Shown here: piece after piece, positions 1 to 64,000 of the stretch
How the letters are laid out: each line of letters starts with the position of its first letter
Numbering within the stretch: the stretch's first letter is position 1
Program-made: the position numbers and the translations under genes
Notes under the pieces: model-generated
Told to the model about the DNA's origin: nothing
Databases searched by the model: none
The model's input: only the letters and a program-made list of their open reading frames with translations
Source: Bilabrum cf. latius
Taxonomy: Eukaryota
Length of the DNA stretch: 64,000 bases
Assembly (NCBI GenBank): GCA_965178125.1
Contig: OZ237749.1
Location: 868,001 to 932,000 of the forward strand
Direction: 5' to 3'

Positions 1-1023
1 CCCCGCGGTGTCCTTCTGGCTCGCACCGTTGTCAGCGTCCCACACGCTCCTCGCTCCCCCCGTGTCCACCTTCACGGGGCGGCTCTTTCTACTCGCACTA
101 CTGCCAGAACCACACTTATCCAAATCACTGCTGGTGTGCTTGAAGACAATTTGCGTGGCGCTGCCGCGATTCTTCAAGCCAGCGCCGCCGGGTGACATCG
201 CGTACGAATCCGCAAAGTCCGAACTGGGCTACTATCCAGCACTACCGCTCGGTTTCGAGCCACCAGCTCCACCCATCTTACATGAATGCGTTCTCTTTCC
301 CTTTGAAGTGGTCTACGGGCTCAATGCAGCATCAGCAGACCGACCTATCCCGGTCGAGACGCTGCCGGCTTGAGTTGCGGTGGTTCCAGACTCCACGAGA
401 CCAGCCCCGTTCGCAGCCGCAGCCCTACATCCAGCTCTGGTGCTCTTGGATGAGCTTTGGCTAGTACGTGACCCTCTACCAGTGTCCATGGCGTCCTCCC
501 CGAGCGTCATTCGAAGAAACTTGAGCTAATTGGCATTGGGAGCCGAGGCACGCCTTATTCGGCCTTCGCTGACAAAGTGCTGGTTTCCTTCATTCGCATC
601 AAGACTATCTGCGGCTAAAGCGGCTGCAGCAGCTGCACCAGCCCTGCCAGCGTCTGCATCCCGTGCAACCGGCTGGTGCAGCGCTGCTCCAGCGTCTCGC
701 ACAGCCTGCTTTATAGCCCTACCATCAGTATGCGAGCGCCTTTTATGAGCTGCAAGCATTCCAAGACCTCTTTCATGGCTGTTGAACTCTATGCTATCAA
801 CTGCAGGTGCCCCAACTGCAGAGGAACGCCTGTTCGAGGTGGCCGCGCTCGTTTGCTTTTGCATTGCGATCAAGCCATCAACACCGCCAATAGCGAGTGC
901 TCGTAAGGCCCCAACAGTTCGTCTGCGATCAATATACGGAACTAGTGAACTACTGTATGGATACATACATAGGTTGGCCCCCTAAACTTGCGTGTCGCCT
1001 CACCTTGCTCGTGGAGTGGACAT
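1..1023 (-). CDS. Hypothetical protein, 5' part (runs off the window start); in-frame TAG read as Gln
   Basis: ORFs 526..966 and 313..510 are in one frame joined by TAG (526, 313, tandem TAG-TAG at 229-234). No TAA/TGA down to base 1. Probable ATG at 1023 with a short GTGAGG..TACAG intron. No domain recognised. Confidence 0.5.
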
Positions 1024-1309
1024 TAATCTTAGTGACCGCCGACTGCTAGATTTTCCATCTCTCCATTCTAATCTTCTTGTTATATGCCTTCCATTCAAGT
1101 GCGGCTGTATTTCCACCGACATTTACGAAGTACTGGTCGATGCATGGCGGTCGCGCCGGCAAGGCTGGGTGGAGGCGCAAGTTGGTCGCACGGCTTCCCA
1201 CCCTGAAATCTTTTGCAGAGAGTGATACTGATATGAGAGGCAGCATTTTCCAGTCGTTTGCTAGTGACAAACTTATCATACAGGTAGAGCTGTCATTCGT
1301 TTCATCGCA

Positions 1310-2638
1310 TCAGTGGAACCGTTGAGGCCGCCTTGGCCTGTCAGCTTCATCGGCGACGCCTACTATGGGAGAGCCTCTGGCGCCTTCACTTCCCGCCCAA
1401 CCGAACGATGCTTGCCCTGCAGACTCAATAGAGGCAGTCATTCCAGTCATTCCAGCTGGAACTGGTCCTTCATTGGTTATGCTGCCGTGCGCTCCTTGGT
1501 GACCGGAACCTTCGGTGAGGTCTCTGAGAGCACTGCCACCACCAGCGGGTGCGCTAGGTCTGCCTTCCCCTTCACCAATCTATCCGCTTGCACTTGCACC
1601 CGCCTGCATTGGAGATCCGGGTGGCATTTGAACACCTGAAGAACCCCTCGCGCTCCCAGGACTGCCGGTAGCCCCTGCTCCTCCGAAAGCACTTGCCCCG
1701 CCGAGCAACGAGGGACCGGCACTCACGGACGGCTTGGCATCGACGTCCATGCTCGCCATGGAATCGGGCGCGTCCAAGTAGGCAGAAGTGGAGGAGGAAG
1801 AGGATGAAGATTTCCCTCTGTCTCCCTGCCTCCACCTGTCGGAGCCGGTTGGGGACTGGTGCCCATTGGCGATTGCTGCTTCGCCGCCGCGAGGACTTGG
1901 GGACCCCGCAGATCGAGCACTGTGTTCTCCGGGTGGCTTGACCTGCATGGTGGAGTGCTCCGCCACCCTACCAGACTCCGGGTCGATCGCCCACAGGGGC
2001 ACGATGCACACGACGGGGACGCTCCTTCCCGCCTCGCCCGAATCTGCCGATGCCCGAGCCGAGTGGCGCCGGACCATCTGGGCAACCGAAGTGGATCTCT
2101 CTAAATCCATCGGTAAAATTGCTGGAGTATCTGCAGAACTCGAGAGAACTGGTAGTTCCGGCCCTGTAGCCTCCTGCGGGTCGCCCGGCCTGCTAGAAGG
2201 GCCGGCTGGTACTTGTCGTGCATACAGGTCCTGGCCAGCCGGAGCTCCGAAGCGGTATCGAGCTCGATCAGTGGGTGGCCTGCTAGATTAGTATGAATAT
2301 TAATAATTACAGCTGGATGACATGGCATCTATCAATCTGGATGCAGCAACGTGATAAAGTGCATACCTCCTGTAGTGATTTTCGACCTCTTGTATCGAGC
2401 TCAATGCCTCTTGAAACCAAGAACGCCTCTTGCGAATTCGTCCAGACCTCTCCGTAGAGATTACATCTCGAAATAAGTCTAGCGGCATTCTAGGGTCCAC
2501 GGCCACAGTCCCCAGCACGCCAGTTGGTCCCCCTGTTGGGTTTCCGACGAGAAATGAGTGGCCTTTGGTGATATCCAGGTTCGGTCGCCACACAGATACA
2601 CCAATGCTAACCGTGCTTTCCTCCAGATTTGGCTCCAT
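1310..2638 (-). CDS. Hypothetical protein, 2 exons
   Basis: ATG at 2638 (MEPNLEES). A GT-AG intron at 2283..2366 joins it to the 1580..2110 frame, which passes TAG at 1580 and ends at TGA 1310-1312. No domain recognised. Confidence 0.45.
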
Positions 2639-3003
2639 TGCACGAAAAGCCTGTACGTAGCACGCAACGGCAACTGCATGGTTCCGCCGGCGCCGGCAAA
2701 GCGATGCGCGGCGCCGAGCAGAATCTCGAGAAAGGCCAGCTATACTCCTACTGCACGTGATTTTGAGCAACTTGATACTACCTGCGCGTATTTGGTTTGA
2801 TATTATATTGAAAGAGGCTTCTGTTCGAAGAAAGTTTCGCTTTATGTCTCTAGTGAGAATTGATTCTTATTCGAAAGAAGTGCTCACTCACGAGCAAGCA
2901 CAAGCAGCTTTAGCGGGTAAATGGCTGCATTATCCACCGTCTTCATATCCTAATCTGTATTAAAATAAACTGTTCTTTTGAAAACCTCTATCTCTACTCG
3001 CAG

Positions 3004-6000
3004 GAAGCCCCAGACTTGACCGACAGTGATCCAGAACTCAGCGACAGCTCATGCACGATCTTTGCCTGTGATGGGTGTGACAAGAGTCTTGAGGGACAGG
3101 TCAGGATCACTTGCCTCATATGCAAATAGTTTGACTTGTGCTGCGAATGCTGCTTCAAGGTGAAGGTGCATGGCGCACGATTCGGCAAGCACACATCATC
3201 CCACCCTGTGCAGCGCTTCGAACCCGAAGCCGATACAGCTGCAGCCATTTCACAGAAATCTCACCGAGTTTAGAGAAGCGTCACAGATACTGGCATGCTT
3301 GACGGCCCTCATGACCCGCTCACGCTGCTGTTGGACAGCTTGGGCTCCGCATCAGGTCACGTGGAGCAGTTGCTCGGCATGCCTGGCCGACACGACGGAA
3401 CGCCTGATGTGAGTACAGTGGGGAGCACTTCCAACCTATTGGAAGGCCTGCAATCAATTTAGTCTATGGTTGATGCTCTTAAGACTGATGTGAGACAAGG
3501 CGATCAGACGACAGGTACTCCTGACGTAGACTAGTTTGATTGGGACTCGAACGGGTTGTGTGGCATTGATGACTTCTATGGCGGACAGAAAGGCAGTCTT
3601 CACTCCAACAGTGTTGATGAAGGGAGCATTTTTGCCGATATATTCGATGGCGGCGAGCTGCAGGGTGCTCAGGAGGCAGACACATCTGAGCTCCTTACTT
3701 CGCCGAGCGAGCACGGGGTGGACCATGAGCAGCCGCAGGAACAGGAGGACACAAGCCATAGCACAGGGGAACTTCACGAAGGCTCAAAGTACGTGGGAGT
3801 GTGCCCGCTTCGAGATGGCCGCTGGCGCGTAAAAGCTTACATCGGAGGGGACCTCAAGTACATCTGCGATGCCGACTCGGAGGACCGCGCGGCTGCCTAC
3901 CACGACGCCGTGACGCGGCACTTCCTGGACTCCCACGGCGGTTCCTCGGTGTAGGACCTTGCTAAGGCGATTGATAATGAGCTAGACGATGTACCGACGG
4001 CAGCCAGCCTGGAGAAGGACCATTTCCCTCAGGACAGTGCCGGCTTCATCTCTAGCATGGAGGACGCGTGCATGCAAGAGGAGAGCAAGACTGGAGGCGA
4101 CGATGCACGCCTGCACAGCAAGCGAGCAGGAAACTCGATCATGTCGCGTAGAACAGCAGATAGCACCCCTGATGCCGCGGACTACACGCTGAATTTCCCT
4201 CAGGGCAACCCAGAGGTGGACCGAATCATGAACTCCAACACGCTGGATACCCTCACTTCGAGGCATGAGCCCAAGGCGGCGTACGACAATGACTTCGACC
4301 TTCGCGAGTTCGAGCGAATTGTTCTCCGCACGCTGGTGGCGGCTAGTCCTGGTGGGATCGACGAGGACATGCCAATGGGAGACTACGACGATCTCGAGGA
4401 GCTGCGCGGAGAAGCCAACAAGGGGGATCTTGAGCAGGCTGGTCTCACCCCCAGGGAAAGACATGCCGACAACGGTCAGTCTCGCTCGTCTCCACGTGCG
4501 CGAAAGCTTGGCGGCCGCACAACCCAGGCGGAGACACTGAGCACGCCGCAGTTCTTTACGGCAGGTACAGCCGATCCGGCGATGCCTTGGCCCGCTCGCG
4601 TTCCGAGGAGAATTCAGGCAGCGTGGGAAGAGAAGCAGCGGCGGAGCAGTCATGCGTCTTACCAGCAACTCAACTAGGGGCCGAAGTGGGGCGATGATAC
4701 GCCTGAGCTGAAATCTATGCTACTTCTGCAGTCCGGGAACAGTGCCAGCATCTATGCGAGAGTCTTGTAGGACTTGGACATGTGTTTCGGGAGCTCGTAT
4801 GCCGGGTCTGTGATCCAAAAAGAGCGAGAGAGAGGAACCGTGCTCGCCGAAACTCTCATAGCAATGTCAGCTGGGGCGGCTACCGAGGAGCGGCACAGCA
4901 TCCAAGAGCTCGTGTCGAGGGCCCTGTCCAGCATGGGCACCTCCAAGCAGGCGTGGGAGCAGATCCTCGGATCTAGCGAGGCTGCGACATCGAGCTCGTC
5001 CAGTGCTGCCTCAGCAGGAGTGCCGAGCGCATTCGCTGGCATTGGGTCACGAAGTTAGAGCCAGCGAGTGAGGTTGCAATCAGCAGCGTCGGGGCCCCAA
5101 ATTTGCTTGAGTTCTCATCTGGTGCAGCACCAGACGTGGCAGCTTGGCGCGCAGCCGGATGCGCGTTTCAAGTCCGTGATCTCGGAAGGCGCCATGCAAA
5201 TGCCGGATGCATCAAGTGGCTGGGTGCAGATTGATGACACTCCTGCATCGCATCTTGACGTGCAAGAGCTGCTGGCATGTCACGGCTACCCTTCGAGCTG
5301 CAGAGAAACACTGCAAGTGCAGGCGTCGGGCACGCCAACGATGACATCGCTCGCAAGTCCAGGCGTCTAGGTGGTGTAGGCGATGTTGAAGCAGCTGCAG
5401 TTCGTGGTACGACGTCGAATCGTTGACTCGGACGGGTCGTGCAAGGATGCCGCCTCCACTGCCTTCCTTCAAGTGAAGCCAGAATCCATCACGGCTGAGC
5501 AGGTCGAGCTGGCGGCAGAGCATATGCAGCTCCACGGAATGCGTCGCATCCTTGGTATGTCAGCCAATGACTCGGGCAGCGCGCTGCAGCCTTGGCAGGT
5601 ACAGTCTGTCGGCGACCTCACACTTGGCGGCAGCTGGCTGGCAAGCGCAGCGTTGGGTCCACTGGCAAGGCGAGTGACGTCTCGGTTCCGCCGCACTACC
5701 TCACAGCTAGCAAAAGGCCTCGGTCTCAAGCACGCAGACCTGACTGCGTGGATTGAAGGGCTGCCTATGAACGTGCACCGGTACAGGCTGGTCTGCAAGG
5801 AAGTGCGTCGGTGGCTATCGGAAGTCCGGCGGTCTGGAGGGCTCTGGTCGCTGTCTGCGAGCCGCAAGCCGCTACCCGACCCAATCGTCTCGCAGAAAAA
5901 GGAAGCTGCCAAGCGAGCTGCTTCGATGAGCTCAAAGAAGGAATCAGGGCTCGATGCAGACCTCAGGGAGCTCCGCGAGCAAGCCACGGTGCAAGTCGCT

Positions 6001-8883
6001 AGAATCATTCAGATTGTGGGTCACTGTTCCGGCATCAGTAAGCGCAGGCGAGCCAAGCTGATCTCAGGTCTCGCTCGCTGGGTCATGGCCGTGGAGACCC
6101 GCGGTCAGGCAGCGTACATTGCAGCTCGCAAGCGCCAGAAAGGGAAGCGCAGCAAGTCCAAGGCCAAGCAGGGCCCGTCTGCTCCCAAGAAGCTTCCTCA
6201 CGAGACCTAGCGCGAGTATCGCAAGCGACTGCTTGACCTGAAGAAGAAGAGCAAGCCAGCTACTCGAGCTCCGCGCAGGCAGCCTGCGAGCAAAAAGTCC
6301 GCTCGATCTGCGAAGCCGAGAGCCACACGACGGCCCAGGCCGAAGGCAGCAGCCAAGGCAAAGAAGCCAAAGTAGCCCGTGCTGGAGCTGCCAAAGTACC
6401 GCTTAACCACTGGACCGAGGCACCAGTACGATGCAAATGCCTGCAACCACCTCATTGACCTGCGCGACAGGCACCCTGCTGACATCGAGGACAAGGTCGT
6501 CTACCCGGAAGAACTGCAAGATTTGGACCACCTGTCCGATTCGGACGGCGACGACGACCACCGATGCACCATCTGTGGGGCTCTGGAGAAACCAGTGCAC
6601 GACCCAATCTTGGTGTGTAGCTGCTGCAACATCAGGTGCCACGCATTCTGCAACGGGGTTGGATTGCATGAACCCAAGCTGTCTTTCAACGATCTCAAGG
6701 AGAAGATAGCGTCTGCCGAGTGGAGAGACACCTGGAAGTGCGACATGTGTGCATTTGAAGCTGTCGCATCCGCTGGGCCAGTCAGTGCCGTCGCAGCTTC
6801 ATCGTCGGCTGCTTCAGCTGCGTCAGGTGGTGCAGCTGCAGAAGCTGATCTCGCACGACCAGCCGGTCCGCTAGCATGGGCCGAGCCGCTGTTCGGTTGC
6901 AGCGAGGCGGATCAACCAGAGCGTGACTCGTGCAAGATCTGCTTTCAGCCCCCGATGGGACTCGCGCGGAAGCCCTGTCAAGGTTTTGGCTGGGTTCACG
7001 TCGTGTGTGCGCACAACACTTCGTCTGTTCGGTGGTAGCATCGCGCAAAGTAGCAGTGGCCAGATGCACACCTGCACCAGATTCGCGAGAACTGCATCCC
7101 TAGCTGGGCCAGGACGCAGGGTGAGTCGTTGTGGTTGGCTAAAGATGGTCGATGCGCAATGCCTGAGCCTCTCAGGGTGATGAAGCCCAACGGATGGCCG
7201 AACGGCCGGCGGCGCTGCACCATCTGTCGCACGTCCATCGGAAGCACCATCCCGTGCAACCAGCACTACAATCATCTGATCAAGTACGACACCTGCTCTT
7301 AGGTTGCTCATCCATCCTGCGCTCTGCGCACGGGGCTGTGTCGGCCCACTTGGCTCCGACATGCACCTCCCGAGACCGGTGAGTGGCCCGGCGACACGGT
7401 GTGCGAGGCCGAGTTTGACCCAGTCTATGGGGACCTGCTTGAAACTGCATCAGCTATCACGAAGGAGGGATACAAGCAAGTGCTAGTCAGGAATGAGTCC
7501 CACATCACCGAAAGCAATGGGGAGTGGGACGCTACCTTCAAGAAGCTCGTTGATGAGAAGAAGATCCCGGCAAAGCAAGGTTTCCTTGATTTCCAGGAGT
7601 TCAGAGGCAAGACTGAGTACGTCGGGTCTGGCGTCACGATGCTCATGTGGTTGACCCAGAAGCTGACAGCGTCCAAGCGGTTCTGGGAGGCATGGGAGCG
7701 AGAATCCGGCAAAGACATCGAGAAGCTGGACTTGCTGTACGACCGCGAGCCGCAACGCAAAGAAGGAGTCCTCAAGATGGCAGCTGCCGAAGGCGCGATG
7801 ATTGCCATGCTCGGTTCTGTCCACCCCCTTACGTGGCAAAAGGTGCAGGACATTCACCAGGACATGGAGATTACTTGCAGAATCCTGAATACGAAAGCAG
7901 CCTAGATGCCTACGAGGGACCTCCCGTATGGCATCCCAGCAGACAACCTGCCCAAGAAGGAGCAAGCCATCATTCGAAGCAGAATGACCTGCTGCCTGCA
8001 CAACGAGATCCCACATGACCCTAACCGCATTGTGGTGGGTAAGGGGGCAGGAACTTGCTTCGGGTACTGCGTACCTAGATGGTGGACGAGCCTGCACTAC
8101 ACTGGCCGGAAAGCCCAGGTGGACCGCGAAAGCATGCGATCCTAGTACATCGTGGGGAAGAAGATCCCCAAGATGCCCACCGGCAAAACGTGGGCAGACG
8201 TCATCAAAGAAAATGGAATGGCCGAATTGTGGAGGAAGCGTTCCAAGCTCCGCGAACTCATGGGCCGGACAGAAGATGGCGACGCTGCTGACTCAGGAGC
8301 CGCAGCTGCTGGTGCCGGTGAGGGAGGCGGCGCAACACTGTCCGAGGGCACACCTAGCTCTGCACCCTCTACAGATCATGTCCCCGTGGTTCCCCATGCT
8401 AGCGCTGCTGAGAGTAGAGGAAGTTGCAAGCGAAAGAGAGAGCAAGGCAATCCTACACCAGCCCCGGTCCCGGTCCCGGTCCCAGCCCAAGCTGTCTCCC
8501 TGCCTGGCGCTGCCATCGAGCCAGCATCGTCAAGCTCTAGCACTGCTGCTGCTGCTGCTGCATCCCACAAGGAGAAATCTAGCTCCAAGGAGAGAGACAG
8601 CAACGCTGACGACGTCCCTGAGCCACCTGCTGCCGGGGAATCTACCCCTGAACCGCCAGCCAAACGAAGGAGGGTACAAGGCGCCAGTGCAGGAGGCGAG
8701 TCTTCCAGTACTCCTGCATAGAGCCTTGCGTGCAAAAAAGGTGCATCACCTGCAGGCCAAGCTGTGAGCGTTGGCAAGCCACAAGCCGTTGCAAGAATTC
8801 CTGCAGACCAGCTGCCCGCCCTTGACGGAGTTTCGGCAGCCTCGCAACGGCGTCTGATGAGGGCACTTCGTCGCGGCCGGTGA
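3004..8883 (+). CDS. Large chromatin/transcription regulator: ZZ zinc finger + AP2/ERF-like domain + PHD and extended PHD (PZP-like); first exon upstream unresolved
   Basis: Nine ORF-track fragments (3556, 4057, 4774, 5068, 5383, 6379, 7399, 7906, 8152) are all in frame +1 and each ends in TAG; the frame closes at TGA 8881-8883. Motifs: CDGC..CLICKxFDLCCEC..H..H (ZZ); SKYVGV..GRWRV..SEDRAAAYHDA (AP2); CTIC..ILVCSCCNIRCHAFC..WKCDMC (PHD); CKIC..WVHVVCA..CTIC..IPC..AHPSCA (ePHD). Confidence 0.8.
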
Positions 8884-8973: not shown

Positions 8974-11900
8974 TCAAGACAAGGTTCCGTATCGCCCCGG
9001 GCCCGAAGCAGGGGCCTATCGACTGCCACCGCCAGACCAGAATCGAAACCACGCCAGCCCTCCAGCTCTGCCGCCCCTACCGCTGCCATCTGCACCGACG
9101 CTGCCCCCGCCCCTTGCCACTCCGACTCCGTATGAAGAACCGCTTTCGAAGCACTGGCTGGATGAGGCATGGTCTTGACCGATCCCAGGACCGGCCTTCT
9201 TGTCCTGCCAGGGAGCGACGCCGTCATCTACCAATCGCGCAATAGCCTCGTGCGGGCTCCGCACTCGGCCACTAGCTACACGCCCCTCGGCCGCAGATGT
9301 TGTCCCAGTCCGCTTGCCCGTTGACCCCAGGCCCTCTGGGGTAGACTTCTGCTTCGGGCGGTCCTGAGGAGACGCAGCTCCTGCACTGACGCTCCTGTTG
9401 CGCGTGAAGGTCGGCACGGGGTGCTCCCAATACCCTTGCAGGCCGTCCCCACTCCCGATGTGGAAGCTGCTACTGCTGGCTTTGTGCTTCCCAACCCCCT
9501 CGATCCGGCTAGCAAGCAATGATGAAGCAGCAGAGGGCTTCGGTGCTACAGACGGCTGCCTCCCAACCAAGCCGCCGACCCCAGCCCCGACCCCGACCCC
9601 GCCACCTGCACCGCGCACAGCACCAGCGGTGAAGCCAGCCGGGTCACCAATACCTGCAATCCCCTTGGTGCCCCCTTCGGCGGCCATCCGCTGCGCGGCC
9701 ATGGCAGCTGCCAGCGCGATCGAGGCCTCCTCATCAGTGACCCCGCTGGAGCCCATTGCTGCACTAGATGCACCGCCTTCGTTCTGGCTGATACCATGGT
9801 TTCCCGCCCCACTCGGGCCGTCGATATCCTAGCCTGGTTCTGCAAGTCGCACTTCTAGTGGAGACGAGGCACCACTGCCCCTGGCAAAAGGGGCGGGCTT
9901 AGAAGGAACCGTTGAGCTGCAACCCGAGGTGTTGCCGGAATTGCTGCCCTAGTTGCTGCCCGGGCTGCTCTCAACAGCGGCTGCCCCGATGCCTTCAGGC
10001 TGCGGCACGGCGTGCTGCTTTGGTGAGGCCCTGAGCGATGCCTGCATGGGAGAGAAGAAGGTGGCACGGCGGCGCGCCCCAGACTGCACGGCCTTGCGCA
10101 GCTCCCTGCCCCTCAGCTTCTCGGCGCTGGCACCGTCGATGGCCAGGAGCAATGCGCCCTCGCGCACCAGGCCAGTTCTCGCCAAGGTAGACCCGGGGCG
10201 GACAGAGGTCACGACGATGCTCACGCCGTTCCTGACAGGGGTTTGCTGCAGGCCGAGCGTCAGCACGACCTTGCTGCTGACAGAGGCGGAGGCAGAGCCG
10301 GGGCCCTGCAGCGCCACCTCGTCCTCCGGCTCCAGCGACACGTCCACTTCTTCGTAGTGCGGAAAACTAGGAGACCAAGTGCCCTCTGTTTCATGACGCA
10401 GGGCCTGGGCTGCCTCATCACCAGCAGAAGTGCCTCGCACGGCAGTGAGGGGCTGGAGCGGGTGCGTTTCATCGCTGGGTTGCTGCCGGTCCGCGCCTCC
10501 ATCAGAGGCATCTCGTGAAGCAGCAGTTGAATGAGGGCCGCCGCCAGTATCTGGAGCCCCACCCTCGTCATTCTATTCCTCTGCATGGCCTGGGTGATCG
10601 ACACCAGCGACATCCCCTGAGGCAACTGCCGAACTTCCCATCAGCGGCTTGCCACCCAGCTGCCTCGCTTGCTGCATGCGCAACACCAGGTCCACAACCT
10701 GTCCCTTGCCCTCTTCTGCTGCCCGGCCAACGATTTGCGCGGCTGCTGCTGCCCTGCCGCGGTCGAAGCCCCACTCCACCATCTCCTGCGGACTCGTCAT
10801 CTTTCTTGTTGACGCACCGCTGCGGATCCAGTACACCCTCTCTGATTCAACAGTGCTGTTGGCTGCATCATCACCATGGGAACCCTACTGTTCACCCCTT
10901 TTCGTTGCTTGGTCAGTACCGGCAGCTGCTGGATCCCGCCCCGCTTGACGCCGCACGGTTCTCGTGACGAGTTGGTAGTGCAGGTTGGAGGGCGAGTGGG
11001 AGGGATACACAGGCAGCTCAACCACGTACACCCTCGGCAGCTGCCTGTACTTGACCGGCTATCCCTGGGCTGACACCCGGGCTACAACAGGCACGAGCTC
11101 GGGCGAGCTGACGAAGAGCCAAGAGCCCTCTGGCCCAATGCAGTTGTGCTTCACCTTGTCCAGTGAAAGCCTCATCTCGTCTTCCGCCTCCTGGGACAGA
11201 TGCACCCCGCGTACGGCGCCCCTGTCGGATATCCCAAAGAACAGAGTGCCCCCACGGCTGTTCAAGAACCCGACGAGGTACTTGACTGCTACTCGAGAGA
11301 TGGCCCGCGCTGGACCCCCGTGGAGGCCGCCTTTGAACTCGTGGGCCTCGTCCTCAGGCCACGGGGCAGCCGAGTCCAGTTCGTACCACCGCTTCAGCTT
11401 GGGTCCGCCCTATCCAAGCACCTGCTCACCCTCTGTTTGCAGTGAGACGACCGGGCCATCGTTGATGCGCACACGATGCGCTCCGTACCTCACCTCTCTC
11501 TCTTGCTGCTCCTCTTCGGCAGGTCCAGGTCCCGCACCACTGCTGGTAGACTTGGACTCTTCGCTTGGTGCGTCCGCACCTTGGGATTTAGAATGCTCTT
11601 GCCGCCCTGCGGAAGCCATAGCTTCGCCAGCAGCATCAGCATCCTACTACTCACCGCTGGCGATCTTCGCCTGTGTGGCGGGTGCATGGGATGCATGGGA
11701 TGACGTAGCCGGGTGTGAAGATGCGCCCCACAGTCTAGCTGACTCCCGAACAGCTCCCACTGCCCCCAAGTCCTCCACAGCCCACGCTAGGAGTGAAACG
11801 GCGGCCAACTCTTCCAAACTCGACTCAAAGGAATGGCTATTCTTGCCAAATGATCTGCTGCTAGCGCCTCGTGCTGACACATTCGAACCGAGCAGCGCGT

Positions 11901-27075: not shown

Positions 27076-27110
<35 letters not shown>

Positions 27111-47283: not shown

Positions 47284-47314
<31 letters not shown>

Positions 47315-50237: not shown

Positions 50238-50457
50238 TTTCAGAGGCCCACAAGATGGCTGCTAAATTTGAATCGATGCTTGCTGTTGCTGTTCGAACCG
50301 CTCCGAACGATTCTGGTTTTCCTGGTAGTATGCAAACAACACGTTACATACCTGCAAACGGATACGGGGACAGACAAACAGTTAAAGTTCCAGCCAAAGG
50401 TAGACTTTGCAGGTAATTTTATCGCAATTTTAAGGATTAATAGCTTGTCGATATACC

Positions 50458-54264: not shown

Positions 54265-54375
54265 ACTTGATTGTTCAGGTGTTTCTTCACTTGCGTCCCC
54301 AAGCTTGTGTAGTAGTCACACTATCGAGACTTGTGCTGCTGGCTGGGGCGGGAGCCCCGCAGCAGGCCATGCCGA

Positions 54376-55492: not shown

Positions 55493-57979
55493 TCAATCCA
55501 GCGATGTGGGCATTTCCCCGATGCGAAGGTTCGTCTGGCCAAAGGGAACCAGCCTGATGGGAGTCGGAGGCGCGCAGTCACTCGAGAGCTGGCCCCCCTG
55601 GCCGCCCACAGCAGCGAGGGACCCTCCCGCCGTCAGGTTACCAGTCGGCCCCTGCCCGCCGCACACGGGACTCGGCGGGGGTGCGGCCGCCGAGTTGAGC
55701 GCCGTCACCCAGTCGGGCAGCAGCCTGCCTTGCGCCTCGATGTACATGGTGTGGTTGCTGTTGCTGTACGGCAGGGGGCCTGGGTGGGGCGCCGTCCTCA
55801 CGAACCGAAGGGCAGCCCCAGGGTCCGTGTCGTTGGGCAGCACCAAGGCCAGGTTCCAGGGGGTGGTGGGATGCACCGCGTAATCGTAGGACTGCATGTA
55901 GTAGTGGTGCAGCGCCTCGTAGTGCTGCCCGATCGACAGGGCGTACACGATGGGCCCTCGGGTCACTGTGGCCGCCTCTTGGAAGGATCGCTCCACTTTG
56001 ACCACCGGGTTCGTGCGGAGGGTCACGCTCCACGACTGCTCCCCCGAGGGAACAACGACAGGTCCGCGTAGGAGACCCTTTTCACCGTCGTGCGACGAGT
56101 GCTGCGGCCCGCCGCCGCTGGGCTTCCACAGGGGCACGTCAGCCAGCGTGCCTGGTTGCACGGGGGTGCCGCCTCCTCTGGCGCTGCTGCTGCTGGTGCT
56201 GGCGTCAGAGACATCGATCGTGGGACTCTCGGCCCAGCCGGGTACGCGCATGTGGAGGACTAGCGGCACCCCGGCGCCCTGCAGCACCTGCAGCGCACCA
56301 GCGGACGCCGTGACGGTCAGCTGCACGTCGTCGCTGAACGGATAGGAGGAGGTGATGTTCACCGTGACCAGGTTAGCCGCGAGATCCACGCCCGCGAGAC
56401 GGAGGGCGGTGGCAGTAGCGGGCAGCCCCTTGGAGCGCCGGACCATCGCTTGCGCCGGGAAGGTGAAGGCCTGCGGGGAGTACCCTGCGAGCGTGATGCC
56501 GCCGTCCAGAGCCAGGAGGGCCTGGAACAGCATGGCCTTGGGCTGGCCCTGGATCCCGTTGGCCGTGCAGCAGCCATAGTTGGGCGCGAGGCCGTACAGC
56601 TCCGAGTCGGGCCCGTCGGTGACCCAGACGTGCGGATCCGACACGACAGCCTGCATCTCGTTGACTGCTTCCAGGTACGGGTGCGCCCACCTGTCCTCGG
56701 TCCACTCGCCGGGATACGCGTTGTATCCAGCGCGCTCGGTCATGTCGAGGAGGTGCAACGCCTCTGCGCCCTGGATGGAGAAGATCGTGTTGAGGGAGAA
56801 CATGGTCTCCACCACGGTGCACAGCTCCGTCCCCCTCGACGGCATGAGACCAGCGAGGTGCTCGTCGGCGGTGAAGGTGCCAAGCACCGTGCCGTGGTAG
56901 CGCCAGACCCGGTCGATGCTTGCGAGAGAGACGTTGCGAAGGGTCTCGTTGTGGGACTGCCTCCACCACACGCTGGCTTGCTTGAGTGCCTGGGCGTTGT
57001 TCACTCCGTGCGTGAAGAGGTTCGGGTTCTTGTCCACGGATTTCTGGGGGAAGCTCGGGCCCAGGAACCAGTCGCTCCAATCGAAGCCCTGCTGCTGAGC
57101 CAGCTCTCCCGCGTCCCACAGCAGCTGCTCCTGTTCCCCGGGATAGTTCTCCAGCAGCCAGTGCGTGGTCAGCACGAAGTCCATCCAGCGGGCGCCCGAC
57201 CAGCTAGAGCCGAGCGGAGTCTGCAGCATGCGGGTGTGGGCGGCTCGCACGTGCGCGATGCACGCATCTAGCACGCGCGCAGCGGCGCTCTCGTTGTATT
57301 CCGCATACGCTTGGATCGCAAGCATGAGCGGGAATCTTGCCCAGTAGGCATTGCCGCCGAGTATCTCGTCGTCCGGGCCGAGCCATCCTGCAGTCCCGTT
57401 CGCGTGCGACACGATGTACTCGATGTATGTCCGGCTGGCGTTCAGCATGCGGGGGTCCTAGAGCAGTCCAGATCCCGGCACGATTCCGTTGAGCCAGTAG
57501 GGGGTTCTCTCGTGAAGTCCTCCGTCCGCGCCGCCACCAACCCAAACCGAAGTTGCGACGTCAGCCCAAAAGTCCTGCAGATGTCCCTCGAGACCATCCA
57601 CGAACACTTGCATTTCATCCCTAACCCAGCCGTGAGGAGAAGTGAATGCCACAGAGATAGGTTCGTGAGCCAGCGGGGCAATGGAATGCTCTCTCGTCCC
57701 AGAAGTTCTGCATGCATTGAGGGTTTGCGGCATGAGCTCAGCCTTGAGCCAGCAGTCAACGGTACCCTCGTTTAGACCGCATGTATTCACTGCCCATGCC
57801 ACGCATTTTTGCTCTGCTTGGCACTTGCTGTAGCAGTCGGTTGCCGACTCGGCTTGCAACGGCATGCCCGGAAGATCGCCGTACGCCCGGTCTGTCCCTG
57901 GATTTCCTTGATCCCAGGCCCCGAGGGCGGGCACAACAGAGAGTGCCGCGACATGTAACGCGACAGAGACTGTGTGCAT
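55493..57979 (-). CDS. Secreted GH127 (DUF1680, beta-L-arabinofuranosidase-like) glycoside hydrolase with N-terminal PAN/apple-like module
   Basis: Signal peptide; CYSKC..CVAWA..CWLK (PAN); ERTPYWLNG, HGVNNAQALK, GTFTADEHL, TELCTVVE, NYGCCTAN, YPF, RGPIVYAL, LVPFGQTNLRI. Single TAG at 57458; ends at TGA. Confidence 0.85.
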
Positions 57980-58079
57980 GGCTGCAGTGACTCGAAAAGA
58001 TATGACAAGCAAGCAGAACGCTCTGCCGGAGCCAGTCCGGAATAACAAACTTCGACATGATTAAGCAGCAGATCCTAGA

Positions 58080-61000
58080 TCAATCAAAGGCTGCCCAGTC
58101 CTCCTCGTCCTCTCCAGTTGCATCCCCACCGCTCGCAGGGGCCGAGGTTGCCGGCGCGTCATCTGCTTTCCCGCTGTCTTCGTCATCTCCGTTGAACGCA
58201 TCCCAGTCGTCACCATCGCCGCTGTCGCCATCCCCCAGATCCAAGTCGTCGTCGGCCGCGCCACCGGCCGGTGTATCGGCCGGAGCGGTACCTTTTGCAT
58301 CCTCTGCAGCCTTGCTTGGCGCACTGGGGGCTGCATCAGCCTTTTTTGCGTCCGTTCCATCGGCACCGGAGCTCTTGCTCTTGCCCTCGCCCTCGCCCTT
58401 GGCTTCGCCCTTGGCTTCGCCGCTTTTCTCGCCATTCGTGTTGTCCTCTGTAGCCTCCACTTCCGCTGTCGATTGCGGTGCTGCCTCTGGGGTTGCTGCC
58501 GCCGGCTGTGCAGCGGGCGGCTCGGGCGATGAGGAAGCAGCAGCGGCAGTAGGCGACTCGCTGTTGCTGGCGTCAGCCGCACCCCCGTTGCCTTCATCGC
58601 CCTCGTCGAAATCAGCGAAATCTGCGTCAAAGTCATCGTCGCCCCCATCATCTCCAGCGCTAGCTTCCCCCGCCGCGGCATCATTATCCTGCGTCGCAGA
58701 TGGTGTCTGCACCGCGGTGCCAGCCTCTGCGGCGATGACGTCAGCATCCGTGTCTGCACCTGTGTCCTTGCTCATCGCTGCCTAGCTCTCACTTGGCCCT
58801 TCGCTCCCAGCCTCGCTCGTCTTGCCATCATCACCGCCCGCTGGCTTGCTGTCTGCGTCAGCACTGCCGATGCCACCAGCGCTAGCATCATCAAAATCGA
58901 AATCGTCGCTGGGATCGGCCCCTGCATCGCCGCTAGGTTCACCCATGTCGCCAAACGGGTCTGCTTCATCGCCCGCCGCTGGTGCAGGTGCATCGGACTT
59001 CTCTGCCGTCCCGCTCCCAGCGCCATCGATCGCTGCAGAGTCTTCGAACCCTGCGTCAAAATCAACGTCGAAATCGTCGTCATCAGCCGGTGCCGGTGCC
59101 GGGGCTGGGGCCTGTGCGGGCACGGGCGCAGGTACAGGCGCAGGTACAGGAGCTGGTGTCGACGCAGCTGGTGCGGGTGCAGGTTCCTCCGCGGGTTGGA
59201 GCTCATCGAGAGCAGCGAAGCCGCCCATGTCCGAGCCGGCGCCCAAACCGCCCCCCTTACCGCTGGAAGGCCCGCTGCCACCATCATCGTCCCCAGCTCC
59301 GAGCAAACCGGCCGCCTCGGGGCCGGAGCGCTCCATGCCGGGATGCGGCAGGGACCCCCGGCTGCCGCTGCCTATGGCCTGGCTCGCCGCCTCTGCCGCG
59401 GCGGCGGTGACGTCCCTTGTCGCGCTCATCAGCTCTGCCTGCGCCCGCTGGCGCTCGCCCACCGCCCGGGAGTGCTGCTCCTTGGATCTGGACAGCTGAC
59501 TAGAGGCAGTGTCCCAGGCATCGCTGGCCTCACCCGCCACCTTGCGCGCCCCTGACAGCCGGTCCTTCTCGCGCTGTGCCTGCGCCTTGAGCTGCGCTGC
59601 CTTGGCCTTGGCCGCAGTCACCGCCAGTCGCAGCTCCTTGGCCACCTCCTCCTGCGCCGATGCGGCCTCCTGCAACGCCCGTGCCATCCCCGTCACCTCG
59701 CTGGCAGCGGAGGCGAGCTTGTCCGCCCGCCCCTGCTCCGCGTCTGCCGAGGCCCTCTGCTGCTCCCTGTCTGCCTCTGCTGAAGACGCCTCGCCCTGGG
59801 CGTGGCGCAGCTCCACCACAAGCGCCTTGAGCTCGGCTGCAAGCTCTGCGGTCTTGCCCTGCTCCTGCCGGGCGCCGCCCTCGGTCGAGTCTCTCCGCCG
59901 CCGCAACTCGTCGATCTGCGTGCGAACCTTGGTCAGCTCCCCGCGGATCCGGGTCTGCTCGGTCTTTTCCTCCTGTAGCCTCTCCTGCGCCAGCTCGATC
60001 TGCTTGGTCAGCACCTGGCGCTCACTCTCCAGCCGCTTCAGCTCGCCGTCCAGCTCAGAAGTGCGCTCCTGCTCGTCCTGCCCCTGCGCGTTGAGGGACT
60101 TGAGGTGGTCCTGCATCCCGTACTCGAGCTTCTTCGCAGATGAAACCGCGGCGTTTGCGGCGGCGGCGCTCATTGGCTGGGCGGCTGCCTGCGGCTGCGC
60201 CGCGGCAGACCCACCGACCGAGCCAGCAGTCCCTCGGGAGGCGTTCGAGGCGGTGCGGGCTCGGGTCGCACCTTGCACAGACCCCGCGCTCGGCATCCCT
60301 ATTCCGCTGGGCCTGCGCTGGTGCGGGGTTCCAGCCGCTGGGCCAGAGCCTGTAGAGCCCTGGTCGTTGCCGGTAGCACCGCGCTGCGGGGTTGTCTGGC
60401 CCACTGTACCCATGCCCGGCATGTTGCCGAAGCCGCTGCCGCCCGCACCCATTGTGCCCTGTCCTGGCCCTGCCACCCCCGGCAGGGACCTCATGCTGCC
60501 GGACCCACCGCTCGTGGCGTGGCCAGCGATGCCCGAGGCAGGGGACCCATTCGAGGCCACTGGAGCACTGCCAGGCTGCGGGCGCACCTGAGGCTCGGTT
60601 GGTGTCGGCAGCGGAGCTTGTACTGGGGGTGGGGCCTGGTCTGCGGCAGGAGCCGGGGCTGGAACAGGCGCCGGCGCTGGTTCTGGTTCCGGTGCCTCTT
60701 TGGCCAGTAGCGAGTCTGAATACTGGCTGAGTGCATCGGCCAGCGACATGGAGCCCGAATTGCCGGCGGTCGGGGCTGGGGCTGGAGCTGGGGCGGCTTC
60801 CGCAGGTGCAGGTGCAGGTGCTGCTGGTGCGGGCGTTGGTGCCGGTGCAGAGCGCAACATGGCAGCAGCAGCCCCGTCTGAGCCCACAGACGCTGGTGCG
60901 GGGCCCGACCCATCGTCAGTCGCGAGCTGTGCCAGTCCCGGCGAGAGGGAGGCGGGGATGTCCTTACCCCGCTTGCACATGGCGATGAGGTGCATGGCCA

Positions 61001-62022
61001 CGCAGAACTCCCCTCGCTTGAGCAGCCCGTCCTGGTTTACGTCCGATTTGACCCAGATCTGCCTCAGGATTGGCTTTCCCAGACCGCTCTTGGACATAAA
61101 CTCAACCGCGGCGCGACCGCCCAGCCCGCTGGAGTCTCCGCCCGCCATGGAGTACATCTGCTGGTATTTGCGCAGCTGTATGGGCGACGGGTCGTCTGCG
61201 CTGGAGCCCACGCTCCCGCTGCCAGCCCCAGCACTTCCCACGCTGCCAGGGCCAGTTCCAGCGGTCGGGGGCGGGGACGAGACGGAGCCCAGGCCAGGCG
61301 CCTGTGGCGTCTATCCGGCCGCTGGGGGCAGCACTACCCCGCTTATGACAGGCGGGGGCAATCGATCGAACGCAGTGGCAGTCAGAGTTGACTGTGTCAC
61401 GGGCTTCTGGCGCTGCGCCAGAGCGACAAGGCGCAGCGCCACCTTCATCTCGGCGTCGTTCAGCGAACTTGAGCCCTGTCGGGAGTTTGCGACGTTCCAG
61501 ACCTGCTTGAGGACCTGCCTCGGGAGTCCAGATCGCCCCAGAAACTGTACTACTTCCCTACCACCAATTTCGGCGGCCCCACTTGGATTCGCAGCCTGCG
61601 GAACGGTCATGACAATCGCTTCGCTGAGTGATGATACGAGAACAGGCGAAGACTGAGGCATCAAGGACAAATTGGCGACCATCAACGATAAAGACAACTA
61701 GGCAATGCCACTACTCCCGATGGCAGTCTACGGCAAAGGCATGCGATTGCAATGCAGCAAGATTCCACATACTGGGCACGTACCTTCACTAGTGCATCGT
61801 ACTACGGAGCCTCTGCAGGCGACGGTCGCCATACTGCGGGGATACCTTTAGTTAATTGGTGGCATGGCATTCTTTGTGTTTTACAAGCCTTTGGTCACAA
61901 CGTCGTGATGGAGGTGCCACGTCGATTGCTACGAGGCGTCCAATTGCCGCAACTCGATCCTTACAGGGCAAACCAGGACCACCTCGCCCGATAGCAACGG
62001 ACTGGAATTGACGTGAATCCAT
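58080..62022 (-). CDS. EH-domain endocytic adaptor (Eps15/synergin-like): two EH domains, coiled coil, acidic DFxDF/DPF/WxxF tail
   Basis: EH1 IGGREVVQFLGRSGLPRQVLKQVWNVA; EH2 AVEFMSKSGLGKPILRQIWVKSDVNQDGLL..EFCVAMHLI; coiled coil. TAG at 61311 and 58782; ends WAAFD-TGA. The 5' exons (introns ~61596..61783 and ~61834..61964) are inferred. Confidence 0.85.
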
Positions 62023-62188
62023 TAAATCCAGAGACTTGTCGCCAAAGTCCTTATATTTAAAGGGCAACGCGGATCCTGGTTGCGATAGTAACGTGATGTT
62101 ATTGTTCAGGAGCTAGCCGACGCTTGGAGGCCCTCAAGGGAACGCGAACAACTTGTAGCAGCTATCCAACAAATTGACGGCCGTATAA

Positions 62189-64000
62189 ATGCCTCGGACT
62201 CGATCTGGGACGCGGTCATCGAAGGCAGATAGCCCGCATGCCGGCGCCAAGAAGCAGGCTCGTGGAGCACCGATAGATTTGCACAAGCAGCGCCGATTGG
62301 TGGACTATGGCAAGTGTTTCAGAGCATTGAGGCATCCTGAGTCATGGTCATGCACCTAGTCCGGGACTACAGAGGATGTGGTGCTGCTGCTAGGTACTGG
62401 ACAAGTGTCTAGCTACTCAGATGCGAGTGTGCCATCAAACGGTTGCCGCTTGGCACTGCGGCTGGGTGAACGCCCTTTCAATATCATTGACTTGACAGAT
62501 GGACAGCCCATCGATGTCTCCGTCGAACGCACCGGTCTTCTCCAGAAAATGCGAATTCGCTGCGCTGCCCTCCAACGAACGGTGCTCGGGTCCGCGGCAG
62601 GCACCGGGTTGGGCGGCAAAGAGAGCCCTTGGGAGCACCTTAGAAGGTACGTTAGGCTATTTAGCCTGCCATTCTTCAAGGCGGAGAGCCTTCGGAGGCG
62701 CCGGCTCGACGACCTGCGTGCAGCTGCCGAGCTGGAAGAGGGCGAGCAATCCGAGGGATCAACCGCCAGTGGCAGTGGCGGCGAGTCTGAAACTGGGTCC
62801 GCAGCTGCAGGAATGTCACAGGAAGACGAGCAGCTGCAGTCTGTTCTTGAGCAGGAGCAGGCCACGCTGAAGCGCATCCTCAAGAAGTCGACCGAATACC
62901 GCCACGAGGCAGGCAGCAAGCGAGCCTCCTCCTCCTCCTCCTCCACCTCCTCTTCCTCCTCATCCTCGTCGTCGTCATCGGGGAAAGCGCCCAAGCAGGC
63001 AAGAGGCCCCACCCCGCCAGGATTCACGGGCCTCCGTAACCTCGGCAACACGTGCTACATGAACAGCACCCTGCAGTGCCTCTCGTCCTGCGTTCCTCTG
63101 AGGCGGCTGCTCTTCGCCTGGAGGCCGCCAATCGTCACGTCGTACGAGGAATACCTGGGCGGCATGGCGGCCACGGGGCAGCCGTACGGAATGTTTAGAG
63201 CTGCCTCCATCGGAATGCAAGATGGTGTCTCCGAGCCACTCGGCGGCGATGCGGGGCGGGGCTAGAGTGCAGGTGAGGCAGGTGAGGCAGCCGAGAGCCC
63301 CGCGCTGCAGGCGGTAGGGAACGAGGAGTCGGCGTCTCTGCTGACAGCGCCCAAGATGCTGCGGCTACCAAGTGAAGTGGTCAGGGCCTTTGAATTCGGC
63401 GGGGGACTCAGGGGCGGCTCCACGCCGGCTGCTTCTCTTGACGGCGCGGACAGGCCTGCATCATCTGCCCCTGCCCCTGCTTCCTCTTCATCCTCGTCCA
63501 AGGGGGACAGCAAGACCAGACAGGCCTCTACTGGCACCAAGTCGAGCATCGGCACAGACAGGGACTCGCAGAGAGACGTGCAGGGGTCAGACCTCGCGTC
63601 TGTACCCCTGGGCTCTGCAGTGCACGGGTCGCTCAGTCGCCTGTGGATGCCTGCCAGGCTACCCATCTACACGCCGCAGGCCCTCTTGTCGACGGTGTGG
63701 AGGAGCCTTCCGCGATTTGCGGGTTTCAGGCAGCACGACGTGGACGAGTTCCTGCGGGGCGTGCTCGAGCGGCTGGACGAGGAGCTGAGGGCAGCAGCGG
63801 GATTCGGTCAGGCAGGCAAGGGTGGGGCCAAATCTGGCTCATCCTCATCCTCGTCGTCGGCTGCGGCGGCTGCGGGCGGCCAAGGCGAGAGCGAGGCGCC
63901 ATCGACTCCCGTTGCGTCAATGTTTACACACGAGACGGTACGGAGGGTACGGTGTCGAGCGTGCGGGCACGTGTCGGCAACGAGGAGCTCTGCAATCGGG
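62189..64000 (+). CDS. Ubiquitin-specific protease (C19/USP family), 5' part
   Basis: Cys box GLRNLGNTCYMNSTLQCL and FAGFRQHDVDEFL..LERL in one frame across TAG 63263; ATG 62189; runs off the window end. Confidence 0.88.

What the first reader, a model, noticed from the sequence alone, without database searches (positions are those of the whole stretch)
1..64000. Non-standard nuclear genetic code: TAG is a sense codon (most likely Gln) throughout the window
Seen in the sequence: nearly every gene is split by in-frame TAG while the frame, conserved domains and splice sites continue unchanged. Examples: nine consecutive +1-frame fragments over 3004-8883; at least 14 in-frame TAGs in the NEK gene; TAG inside core regions of essential proteins (kinase VHR*RILHRDLK, helicase LDMGF*PDI, NHE F*PDTFF, RSP4/6, SNARE). 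Tandem TAG-TAG also occurs (229-234, 11644-11649). I found no internal TAA/TGA in the inter-fragment gaps I read. Established knowledge: most nuclear reassignments change UAA and UAG together (ciliate-type code), and UAG-only reassignments are known from few lineages (for example the fornicate Iotanema and some ciliates). Inference: this GC-rich flagellate may be an independent, possibly undescribed UAG=Gln lineage.
Basis: partly seen in the sequence, partly recalled or inferred. Interest (0 to 1): 0.97.

Follow-up and report, generated by a model that had tools for sequence, protein, structure and literature searches.

The report
TAG read as a sense codon
In this GC-rich protist DNA the usual stop signal TAG sits inside nearly every gene and is evidently translated as an amino acid, most likely glutamine, which is a rare change of the nuclear genetic code.

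Summary
In 17 coding stretches (16,834 codons) there are 86 in-frame TAG, 0 TAA and 0 TGA. Off-frame, the same DNA has 255/343 TGA, 27/52 TAA and 98/113 TAG. Reading TAG through lengthens the longest frames from 909 aa to 2886, 2008 and 1955 aa; reading TAA through adds nothing. All 13 frame ends use TGA (10) or TAA (3).

Protein fragments of close relatives (89-96% identical) end exactly at our TAG in 5 of 7 cases, so the in-frame stops are shared between species.

Gln is the best-supported meaning but is not proven:
- One TAG is the near-invariant zero-layer Gln of a syntaxin.
- Relatives carry Gln at 2 of 3 TAG sites in conserved context.
- Gln scores best of seven one-step candidates against Pfam, only 1.2 bits over Lys and 2.1 over Glu.

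More distant relatives (45-50% identical DDX21, similar GC) use the standard code. One gene tree puts the organism with a clade holding a labyrinthulomycete. No tRNA, eRF1, RNA or peptide evidence was obtainable.

Verdict: a real UAG-only reassignment, a new member of a known kind.

The parts
2857..8883 (+). Large ZZ/PHD-finger gene ('unk2008'): 20 standard-code fragments joined by 19 in-frame TAG, closed by TGA
   Evidence: ZZ domain matched in PDB
3127..3129 (+). TAG inside the ZZ zinc finger (aligned to E, D, D in solved ZZ domains)
6208..6210 (+). TAG shared with a close relative: fragment P0125 (96% id) ends exactly here
7036..7038 (+). TAG where close relative P0121 has Lys
7051..7053 (+). 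TAG where close relative P0121 has Gln, in a conserved context
7300..7302 (+). TAG shared with a close relative: P0121 (92% id) ends exactly here
7903..7905 (+). TAG where close relative P0122 (96% id) has Gln; 11 residues on either side are identical
8143..8145 (+). TAG shared with a close relative: P0122 ends exactly here
8974..14841 (-). 1955-codon gene with a Schlafen AlbA_2 domain; 15 in-frame TAG, including two tandem pairs (11644-11649, 13207-13212); TGA stop
9016..9018 (-). TAG shared with a close relative: P0126 (89% id) ends exactly here, 13 codons before the TGA
9829..9831 (-). TAG shared with a close relative: P0127 (92% id) ends here
16008..27745 (-). NEK-type protein kinase gene: 3865 spliced codons, 18 TAG, 0 TAA/TGA, TGA stop; GT..AG intron at 24647-24786
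28239..29048 (+). Tail-anchored syntaxin-type (Qa) SNARE with 2 TAG and a TGA stop
28845..28847 (+). TAG at the zero-layer position of the SNARE motif, aligned without gaps to the Gln of 'VESQGEM' in syntaxin-1A
   Evidence: 5 of 5 alignments shown
31101..33017 (+). Na+/H+ exchanger; 1 TAG (31386-31388) aligned to Asp of NHE9/NHE6; TGA stop
33594..34715 (+). Pectinacetylesterase/Notum-like gene (exon part); 1 coding TAG
35411..39688 (-). Anoctamin/RSN1_7TM-like membrane protein; 5 TAG; TAA stop
40425..43307 (+). Ankyrin + JmjC protein; 5 TAG; TAA stop just after the JmjC domain
43743..45644 (-). DDX21-type DEAD-box helicase with GUCT domain; 1 TAG (45135-45137); TAA stop after the RGG tail, as in relative P0001
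46413..50381 (-). 1322-codon frame with no Pfam family; 9 TAG in the raw frame (8 in the trimmed stretch); TGA stop
50434..51855 (+). Radial spoke head protein RSP4/6; 1 TAG (50590-50592); TGA stop
52204..54315 (-). Sulfatase gene in several exons; TAG in the exon parts
55493..58060 (-). PAN + GH127-like protein; 1 TAG; TGA stop
58080..61847 (-). EH-domain protein; 4 TAG in the raw frame; TGA stop
62189..64000 (+). Ubiquitin hydrolase (UCH) gene running off the window; 2 TAG
1..999 (-). Open frame running off the window; 5 TAG including the tandem pair at 229-234

Best explanation
This is nuclear DNA of a GC-rich, intron-poor eukaryote in which UAG is no longer a terminator but an ordinary sense codon. 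UGA (the main one) and UAA still end genes. UAG most probably encodes glutamine, as in NCBI translation table 15.

The mechanism is inferred by analogy with other UAG=Gln lineages and is not shown here. It would need a tRNA-Gln with anticodon CUA, derived from tRNA-Gln(CUG) by one base change. It would also need an eRF1 that has lost efficient recognition of UAG. UAG codons then arise mainly by C-to-T change of CAG.

The change is shared by at least one sister species or strain group. It is absent from the nearest more distant relatives that I could sample.
For: SHOWN, TAG is sense:
- There are 86 in-frame TAG against 0 TAA and 0 TGA in 16,834 codons of 17 coding stretches. In-frame TAG (86) is about as common as off-frame TAG (98, 113), whereas TGA (255, 343) and TAA (27, 52) are excluded in frame.
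- The longest frames are 909 aa under the standard code, and 2886/2008/1955/1425/1322/1255 aa with TAG read through. TAA read-through gives no gain.
- Pfam and PDB homology continues across TAG in kinase, helicase, NHE, RSP4/6, SNARE, PAE, sulfatase, anoctamin-like and AlbA_2 domains.
- The SNARE motif and membrane anchor, and 463 of 633 helicase residues, lie downstream of a TAG.

SHOWN, not an error:
- 5 of 7 internal C-termini of relatives' protein fragments (89-96% identity; P0121, P0122, P0125, P0126, P0127) fall exactly at our TAG.
- A generic C-to-T artefact at the rate seen at CAG would give about 24 in-frame TAA and 27 TGA. None is seen.

SHOWN, UAG-only:
- 13 of 13 frame ends are TGA (10) or TAA (3).
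- There is no in-frame TAA although CAA occurs 160 times.

FOR Gln:
- The TAG at 28845-28847 aligns without gaps to the zero-layer Gln of syntaxin-1A in 5 of 5 alignments shown.
- In conserved context, relatives have Q, Q and K at 3 TAG sites. One relative's stop aligns to our CAG.
- Summed Pfam bits over 8 domains: Q 844.2, K 843.0, E 842.1, S 838.5, Y 836.1, W 832.5, L 832.0.
- TAG/(TAG+CAG) is 0.13, of the order of the T/C synonymous pairs TTG/(TTG+CTG) 0.23 and TTA/(TTA+CTA) 0.16.
- Q stands next to TAG 12 times against 7.5 expected (p=0.07, weak).

CONTROL:
- Four metagenome loci with a 45-50% identical DDX21 and 51-69% GC gain little or nothing from reading TAG through: the longest frame rises by 0, 26, 6 and 0 aa.
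Against: The Gln assignment is thin.

- Of 6 TAG sites where a close relative has a sense codon, only 2 are Gln. The others are K, G, G and S; the last three lie in hypervariable linkers.
- One relative's stop aligns to our GAG (Glu).
- Deep-homologue columns are mostly not Gln: NHE D (5 of 5), ZZ E/E/D/D/D, kinase R (5 of 5), RSP I/L. For DDX21, of 120 rows: A 41, R 20, K 18, V 18, Q 17, S 3, E 1, D 1, gap 1.
- The Pfam margin over Lys and Glu is only 1-2 bits.
- A +-3-residue context classifier that recovered true Gln in 16 of 20 trials did not call TAG Gln-like.
- TAG is rarer among Gln-type codons in conserved-family genes (16/266) than in the rest (70/550; Fisher p=0.003, grouping chosen after the fact). 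So TAG may not be fully equivalent to CAG.
- No tRNA(CUA), eRF1, RNA read or peptide was available. The window has no tRNA gene at all.
- That relatives' fragment ends are TAG, rather than another stop or a contig end, is inferred; I had no DNA for them.
- Use of UAG as a terminator in some genes cannot be excluded.
Confidence: 0.72

Rival explanations
1. UAG is a sense codon as above, but it encodes another single amino acid. Glu or Lys are the likeliest, through a tRNA whose anticodon changed from CUC or CUU to CUA.
For: - Deep-homologue columns at TAG sites lean acidic or basic: NHE D, ZZ E/D, kinase R, and distant homologue P0124 E, E, M.
- One relative has Lys at a TAG site in conserved context.
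- One relative's stop aligns to our GAG.
- Pfam totals for K and E are only 1.2 and 2.1 bits below Q.
Against: - The zero-layer position of a syntaxin-type SNARE is Gln. That this position is near-invariant in Q-SNAREs is recalled, not tested here.
- In conserved context, close relatives show Q twice against K once and E never at our TAG sites.
- Q is the top scorer of seven candidates.
- E next to TAG shows no enrichment (ratio 1.02), although E clusters with itself 1.8-fold.
Confidence: 0.13
2. UAG is read through efficiently but not cleanly. Either near-cognate tRNAs insert a mixture (Gln, Lys, Tyr and others), or the codon has a dual sense/stop meaning that depends on position. In that case TAG would be tolerated mainly where the residue does not matter.
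For: - TAG sites are unusually variable. At 6 sites where 89-96% identical relatives have a sense codon, 4 different residues are seen.
- TAG is depleted in conserved-family genes (6.0% against 12.7% of Gln-type codons).
- One shared TAG lies only 13 codons before the TGA of its gene and could be the real terminator.
Against: - Genes carry up to 18-19 TAG, so each must be read with very high efficiency. That calls for a dedicated tRNA.
- One TAG sits at a position that tolerates only Gln.
- In 5 of 7 fragment ends the in-frame stop sits at the same site as our TAG in a relative, so these codons persist between species.
- Depletion of a rare codon in well-expressed genes is ordinary codon bias.
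Confidence: 0.08
3. The TAGs are not translated as such. They would be sequencing or assembly errors, or sites of U-to-C RNA editing that restores CAG, or the genes are pseudogenes.
Against: - Independent assemblies of relatives break at the same codons (5 of 7 fragment ends).
- Generic C-to-T error or editing would also hit CAA and CGA: about 24 TAA and 27 TGA expected, 0 seen.
- Pseudogenes would also collect TGA, TAA and frameshifts. Frames of 2000-3900 codons have none.
Confidence: 0.02

Closest known systems
UAG=Gln with UAA and UGA kept as stops (NCBI table 15 type): Iotanema spirale (fornicate), Protocruzia tuzeti, Hartmannula sinica and Trochilia petrani (ciliates). Listed in PMC11687900 (passages read). 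PMC5304391 was seen only as a search listing and the start of its abstract.
   Same: Only UAG is changed. UAA and UGA end genes. Gln is the probable meaning. The change looks recent, since near relatives have the standard code.
   Different: A different organism: a GC-rich (55-67%), intron-poor flagellate that one gene tree places with a clade holding a labyrinthulomycete. It is neither a ciliate nor a fornicate. The tRNA and eRF1 are unknown here, and Gln is not proven.
UAG=Leu in an uncultured rhizarian and in phyllopharyngean ciliate MAGs; UAG=Ser in Scotinosphaera; UAG=Glu (with UAA=Lys) in an oligohymenophorean ciliate (PMC11687900, discussion passage read)
   Same: UAG is uncoupled from UAA.
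   Different: A different amino acid. Here Leu scores 12.2 bits and Ser 5.7 bits below Gln over 8 Pfam domains. Glu is not excluded.
UAR=Gln codes (NCBI table 6 type: many ciliates, Ulvophyceae, Hexamita, Streblomastix, Amoeboaphelidium; PMC11687900 passage, PMC2984419 listing)
   Same: A stop codon captured by Gln.
   Different: TAA is not sense here: 0 in-frame TAA in 16,834 codons, and 3 genes end in TAA.
Codes without a dedicated stop (Condylostoma, Parduczia, Blastocrithidia, Amoebophrya; listings)
   Same: In-frame standard stops inside genes.
   Different: TGA and TAA never occur in frame here, so there is no sign of all-codon ambiguity.

Membership tests
UAG-only reassignment to Gln (NCBI table 15 type) | UAG occurs in frame, many times, inside bona fide conserved genes | tested here: met
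   86 in-frame TAG in 16,834 codons. Homology continues across them.
UAG-only reassignment to Gln (NCBI table 15 type) | UAA and UGA remain terminators and are absent in frame | tested here: met
   0 TAA and 0 TGA in frame. 13 of 13 frame ends are TGA (10) or TAA (3).
UAG-only reassignment to Gln (NCBI table 15 type) | UAG aligns to conserved Gln columns | tested here: inconclusive
   One strongly conserved column (SNARE zero layer) is Gln. Relatives give Q, Q, K in conserved context. Pfam ranks Q first by 1.2 bits. The other columns are variable.
UAG-only reassignment to Gln (NCBI table 15 type) | A tRNA with anticodon CUA and Gln identity | not testable with these tools
   No tRNA gene in the window. 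No genome is held.
UAG-only reassignment to Gln (NCBI table 15 type) | eRF1 altered so that UAG is not recognised | not testable with these tools
UAG-only reassignment to Gln (NCBI table 15 type) | UAG is not used as a terminator | tested here: inconclusive
   No gene needs a TAG stop. However, a TAG 13 codons before a TGA (9016-9018) could be a real end.
UAR=Gln (table 6 type) | UAA is also sense | tested here: not met
   0 in-frame TAA against 160 CAA. TAA read-through does not lengthen frames.
UAG=Leu (table 16 type, nuclear in a rhizarian and some ciliates) | UAG aligns to Leu or other hydrophobic columns | tested here: not met
   Leu is the worst of 7 candidates, 12.2 bits below Gln. Only the RSP4/6 site aligns to I/L.
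Ambiguous stop/sense codes (Condylostoma type) | All standard stops occur in frame and termination depends on position | tested here: not met
   Only TAG occurs in frame.

The most novel reading that the evidence does not exclude
This is the first nuclear stop-codon reassignment in the stramenopile (labyrinthulomycete-related) part of the tree, and a young one caught early. It arose in a GC-rich genome where UGA dominates termination. It is shared by a small species group and absent from relatives with a 45-50% identical DDX21. UAG is still concentrated at fast-evolving positions and under-used in conserved genes, so it is not yet equivalent to CAG. That would make the group a natural system for watching a codon being captured. 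It would also be a case against the view that such changes need AT pressure.
Probability: 0.3. Interest if true: 0.85.

Novelty: new member of a known kind. Interest (0 to 1): 0.7.

Why it matters
Nuclear code changes are rare, and cases where UAG and UAA part ways are rarer still; PMC11687900 lists only a handful of lineages. A further, independent case would add a data point on how stop codons are captured. This one sits in a GC-rich, non-ciliate flagellate with several sequenced close relatives and standard-code outgroups.

There is a practical side too. Gene calls made on this genome with the standard code are broken into fragments; the fragments of relatives in the public protein collections show exactly that. 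Annotation, orthology and phylogenomic use of these assemblies all need translation table 15 or its like.

Tried and rejected
- **Whole genome:** none is held for this window. No genome-wide tally, tRNA search or eRF1 search was therefore possible.
- **RNA evidence:** The look-up of sequencing runs listed 24 runs, and no RNA holder is listed.
- **Context classifier:** a classifier on residues +-3 recovered true Gln in 16 of 20 trials. It put TAG contexts in the 'generic' class (Leu or Val best), probably because Gln clustering comes from CAG repeats. Composition within +-5 to +-20 residues was also uninformative.
- **Pfam scoring under seven codes:** this works but has little power, because the roughly 9 sites sit in variable columns.
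- **PDB searches:**
  - The PAN/GH127 N-terminal part gave no hit.
  - The PAE site lies beside a gap.
- **Metagenome scan with a DDX21 alignment:** it found no close relative. It returned five eukaryotic loci at 44-50% identity and bacterial helicases.
- **Earlier notes of this scan:** none on this genome or on look-alike sequence. One unrelated note on UGA in another genome turned up.
- **Antisense frames:** long frames opposite real genes (31179-33293 minus, 55379-57955 plus) have no Pfam family. I take them as by-products of GC-rich coding DNA.
- **Gly as the meaning of TAG:** considered because relatives show G at several TAG sites in the AlbA_2 gene. Rejected for three reasons: these lie in Gly-rich hypervariable linkers, GGN is two base changes from TAG, and Gly is implausible at a SNARE zero layer.


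Full report
**What the window is.** The 64 kb are 55-67% G+C. They carry about 17 eukaryotic genes on both strands with few introns:
- a ZZ/PHD-finger protein
- a giant protein with a Schlafen AlbA_2 domain
- a NEK-type kinase
- a tail-anchored syntaxin
- a Na+/H+ exchanger
- a pectinacetylesterase/Notum-like enzyme
- an anoctamin/RSN1-like membrane protein
- an ankyrin-JmjC protein
- a DDX21-type helicase with a GUCT domain
- radial spoke head protein RSP4/6
- a sulfatase
- a PAN/GH127-like protein
- an EH-domain protein
- a ubiquitin hydrolase

The radial spoke protein fits a flagellate. There is no tRNA gene and no Rfam match. No whole genome is held for this window.

**Is TAG really in frame?** Stop-to-stop frames reach 909 aa under the standard code. 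With TAG read through they reach 2886, 2008, 1955, 1425, 1322 and 1255 aa. Reading TAA through changes nothing. Reading TGA through, the commonest stop triplet, opens many frames, but none longer than 1100 aa.

I trimmed 17 coding stretches to leave out introns and run-on, giving 16,834 codons. In them TAG occurs 86 times in frame, TAA 0 times and TGA 0 times. The other two frames of the same DNA hold TGA 255 and 343, TAA 27 and 52, and TAG 98 and 113. So TAG is as common in frame as out of frame, while the other two stops are strictly excluded.

Further checks:
- The frame 2857-8883 is 20 pieces joined by 19 TAG and closed by TGA.
- The NEK gene, spliced over a canonical GT..AG intron (24647-24786, 140 nt), is one frame of 3865 codons with 18 TAG, and the kinase subdomains are restored across the joint.
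- Three tandem TAG-TAG pairs exist, at 229-234, 11644-11649 and 13207-13212.
- All 13 frame ends that lie in the window use TGA (10) or TAA (3).
- For the helicase, the TAA follows the RGG tail where the relative P0001 also ends.
- The SNARE ends just after its membrane anchor, and the JmjC protein ends at the close of its domain.

**Not an artefact.** Public protein collections hold fragments of close relatives at 87-96% identity: P0001, P0121-P0123 and P0125-P0128. These were evidently called with the standard code. Of the 7 fragments that end inside a gene, 5 end exactly at one of our TAG codons (6208-6210, 7300-7302, 8143-8145, 9829-9831, 9016-9018). One ends next to our CAG and one next to our GAG.

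TAG makes up about 0.9% of codons in these two genes, so such coincidence cannot be chance. Independent assemblies carry an in-frame stop at the same sites while the flanks stay 89-96% identical. I had no DNA for these fragments, so it is inferred that their stop is TAG.

A generic C-to-T error or editing process acting at the rate seen at CAG would also create about 24 in-frame TAA and 27 TGA. None is seen.

As a control, four metagenome loci that encode a 45-50% identical DDX21 and have 51-69% G+C already carry frames of 753-1347 aa under the standard code. Their longest frame grows by 0, 26, 6 and 0 aa when TAG is read through.

**Which amino acid?** This is the weak part. Five lines of evidence bear on it.

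1. *A conserved column.* The TAG at 28845-28847 falls in the SNARE motif of a syntaxin-type protein. It aligns, without gaps over 60 and more residues, to the Gln in 'VESQGEM' of syntaxin-1A in all 5 alignments shown. That this is the zero-layer Gln, and that it is near-invariant in Q-SNAREs, is established knowledge that I recall and did not test.

2. *Close relatives.* Relatives have a sense codon at 6 of our TAG sites. They show Q, Q and K in the well-conserved PHD region. They show G, G and S in Gly/Ser-rich linkers where about half of all residues differ. Conversely, one stop in a relative aligns to our CAG and one to our GAG. Gln is the commonest partner, at 3 of 8. However, CAG is also the transition neighbour of TAG, so part of this could be mutation alone.

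3. *Pfam scores.* I scored 8 domain stretches (about 9 TAG sites) against Pfam with TAG read as each of the seven amino acids one base change away. The summed bits were:

| Reading | Summed bits |
|---|---|
| Q | 844.2 |
| K | 843.0 |
| E | 842.1 |
| S | 838.5 |
| Y | 836.1 |
| W | 832.5 |
| L | 832.0 |

. This rules against Leu, Trp and Tyr and less strongly against Ser. It hardly separates Gln, Lys and Glu.

4. *Deep-homologue columns.* These are variable:
   - DDX21, of 120 rows: A 41, R 20, K 18, V 18, Q 17, S 3, E 1, D 1, gap 1
   - NHE6/9: D in 5 of 5
   - ZZ domains: E, E, D, D, D
   - NEK1/NEK7: R in 5 of 5
   - RSP4/RSPH4A: I or L in 5 of 5

   Polar, exchangeable positions suit Gln, but equally Glu or Lys.

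5. *Codon usage and neighbours.* TAG/(TAG+CAG) is 0.13, of the order of the T/C synonymous pairs in Leu (0.23 and 0.16). Gln stands next to TAG 1.6 times more often than expected (p=0.07).

Together I put Gln at about three in four.

**Signs that TAG is not yet an ordinary Gln codon.** TAG makes up 6.0% of Gln-type codons in conserved-family genes (16 of 266) and 12.7% in the others (70 of 550; Fisher p=0.003, grouping chosen after seeing the data). The TAG sites are also more variable between close relatives than their surroundings. This may be plain codon bias against a rare codon, or a young or less efficient decoding system.

**Who is it?** In a DDX21 tree of 43 rows, 18 are named or identifiable and 25 are unnamed; I chose these rows from the 120 hits. 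The window groups with P0001. It falls inside a 17-row clade (SH-aLRT 97) that holds the labyrinthulomycete Mucochytrium quahogii (P0036, named). That clade stands apart from the oomycete plus brown-alga clade, green plants and opisthokonts. This is one gene and a quick search, so the placement is provisional.

**Comparison with what is known.** PMC11687900 (passages read) lists the nuclear cases in which UAG and UAA differ:
- Iotanema (Gln)
- an uncultured rhizarian (Leu)
- Scotinosphaera (Ser)
- an oligohymenophorean ciliate (UAG Glu, UAA Lys)
- Protocruzia, Hartmannula and Trochilia (Gln)
- phyllopharyngean MAGs (Leu)

The present case works like the Gln group. Six full-text searches found no report of a nuclear UAG reassignment in a stramenopile or labyrinthulomycete. 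Most papers of subscription journals are outside that library, and supplements were not consulted.

**Verdict.** UAG as a sense codon, with UAA and UGA kept as stops, is as good as certain for this organism. Gln is probable. The mechanism (tRNA-Gln(CUA), altered eRF1) is inferred. It is a new member of a known kind, of good but not exceptional interest.

Noticed in passing
window 229-234, 11644-11649, 13207-13212: There are three tandem TAG-TAG pairs, whereas chance adjacency would give about 0.4 pairs (6 neighbour slots observed against 0.88 expected). This suggests slippage-type duplication of the codon, as happens in CAG runs.
   Followed up: partly
window-wide; per-gene table: The TAG share of Gln-type codons varies between genes (chi-square p=0.02 over 17 genes). 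It is 2.5-3.3% in the helicase, GH127-like and EH genes, and 17-33% in the ZZ/PHD gene, the AlbA_2 gene and the frame at 1-999.
   Followed up: partly
L001, L002, L003, L004: Metagenome contigs with 51-69% G+C encode the nearest DDX21 relatives outside the species group (45-50% identity). They have long uninterrupted frames under the standard code, so they are useful outgroups for dating the code change.
   Followed up: partly
window 31179-33293 (-), 55379-57955 (+), 10949-13237 (+): Long open frames lie antisense to real genes. The first two have no Pfam family; the third was not scanned. Such frames are typical of GC-rich coding DNA and are a trap for gene callers, more so once TAG is read through.
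   Followed up: partly
window 2857-3010: The 5' part of the ZZ/PHD frame has no ATG and looks non-coding (AT-richer, Ile/Leu/Cys-rich translation). The true first exon probably lies upstream, with an acceptor near 3000.
   Followed up: no
window 8977-14841 (-): A Schlafen-type AlbA_2 domain is embedded in a 1955-residue, largely low-complexity protein. Full-length homologues of 1403 and 1922 aa (P0130, P0131) occur in unnamed metagenome records.
   Followed up: no
window 52204-54315 (-): The sulfatase gene is split into at least three exon pieces in different frames, which makes it the most intron-rich gene in an otherwise intron-poor window.
   Followed up: no
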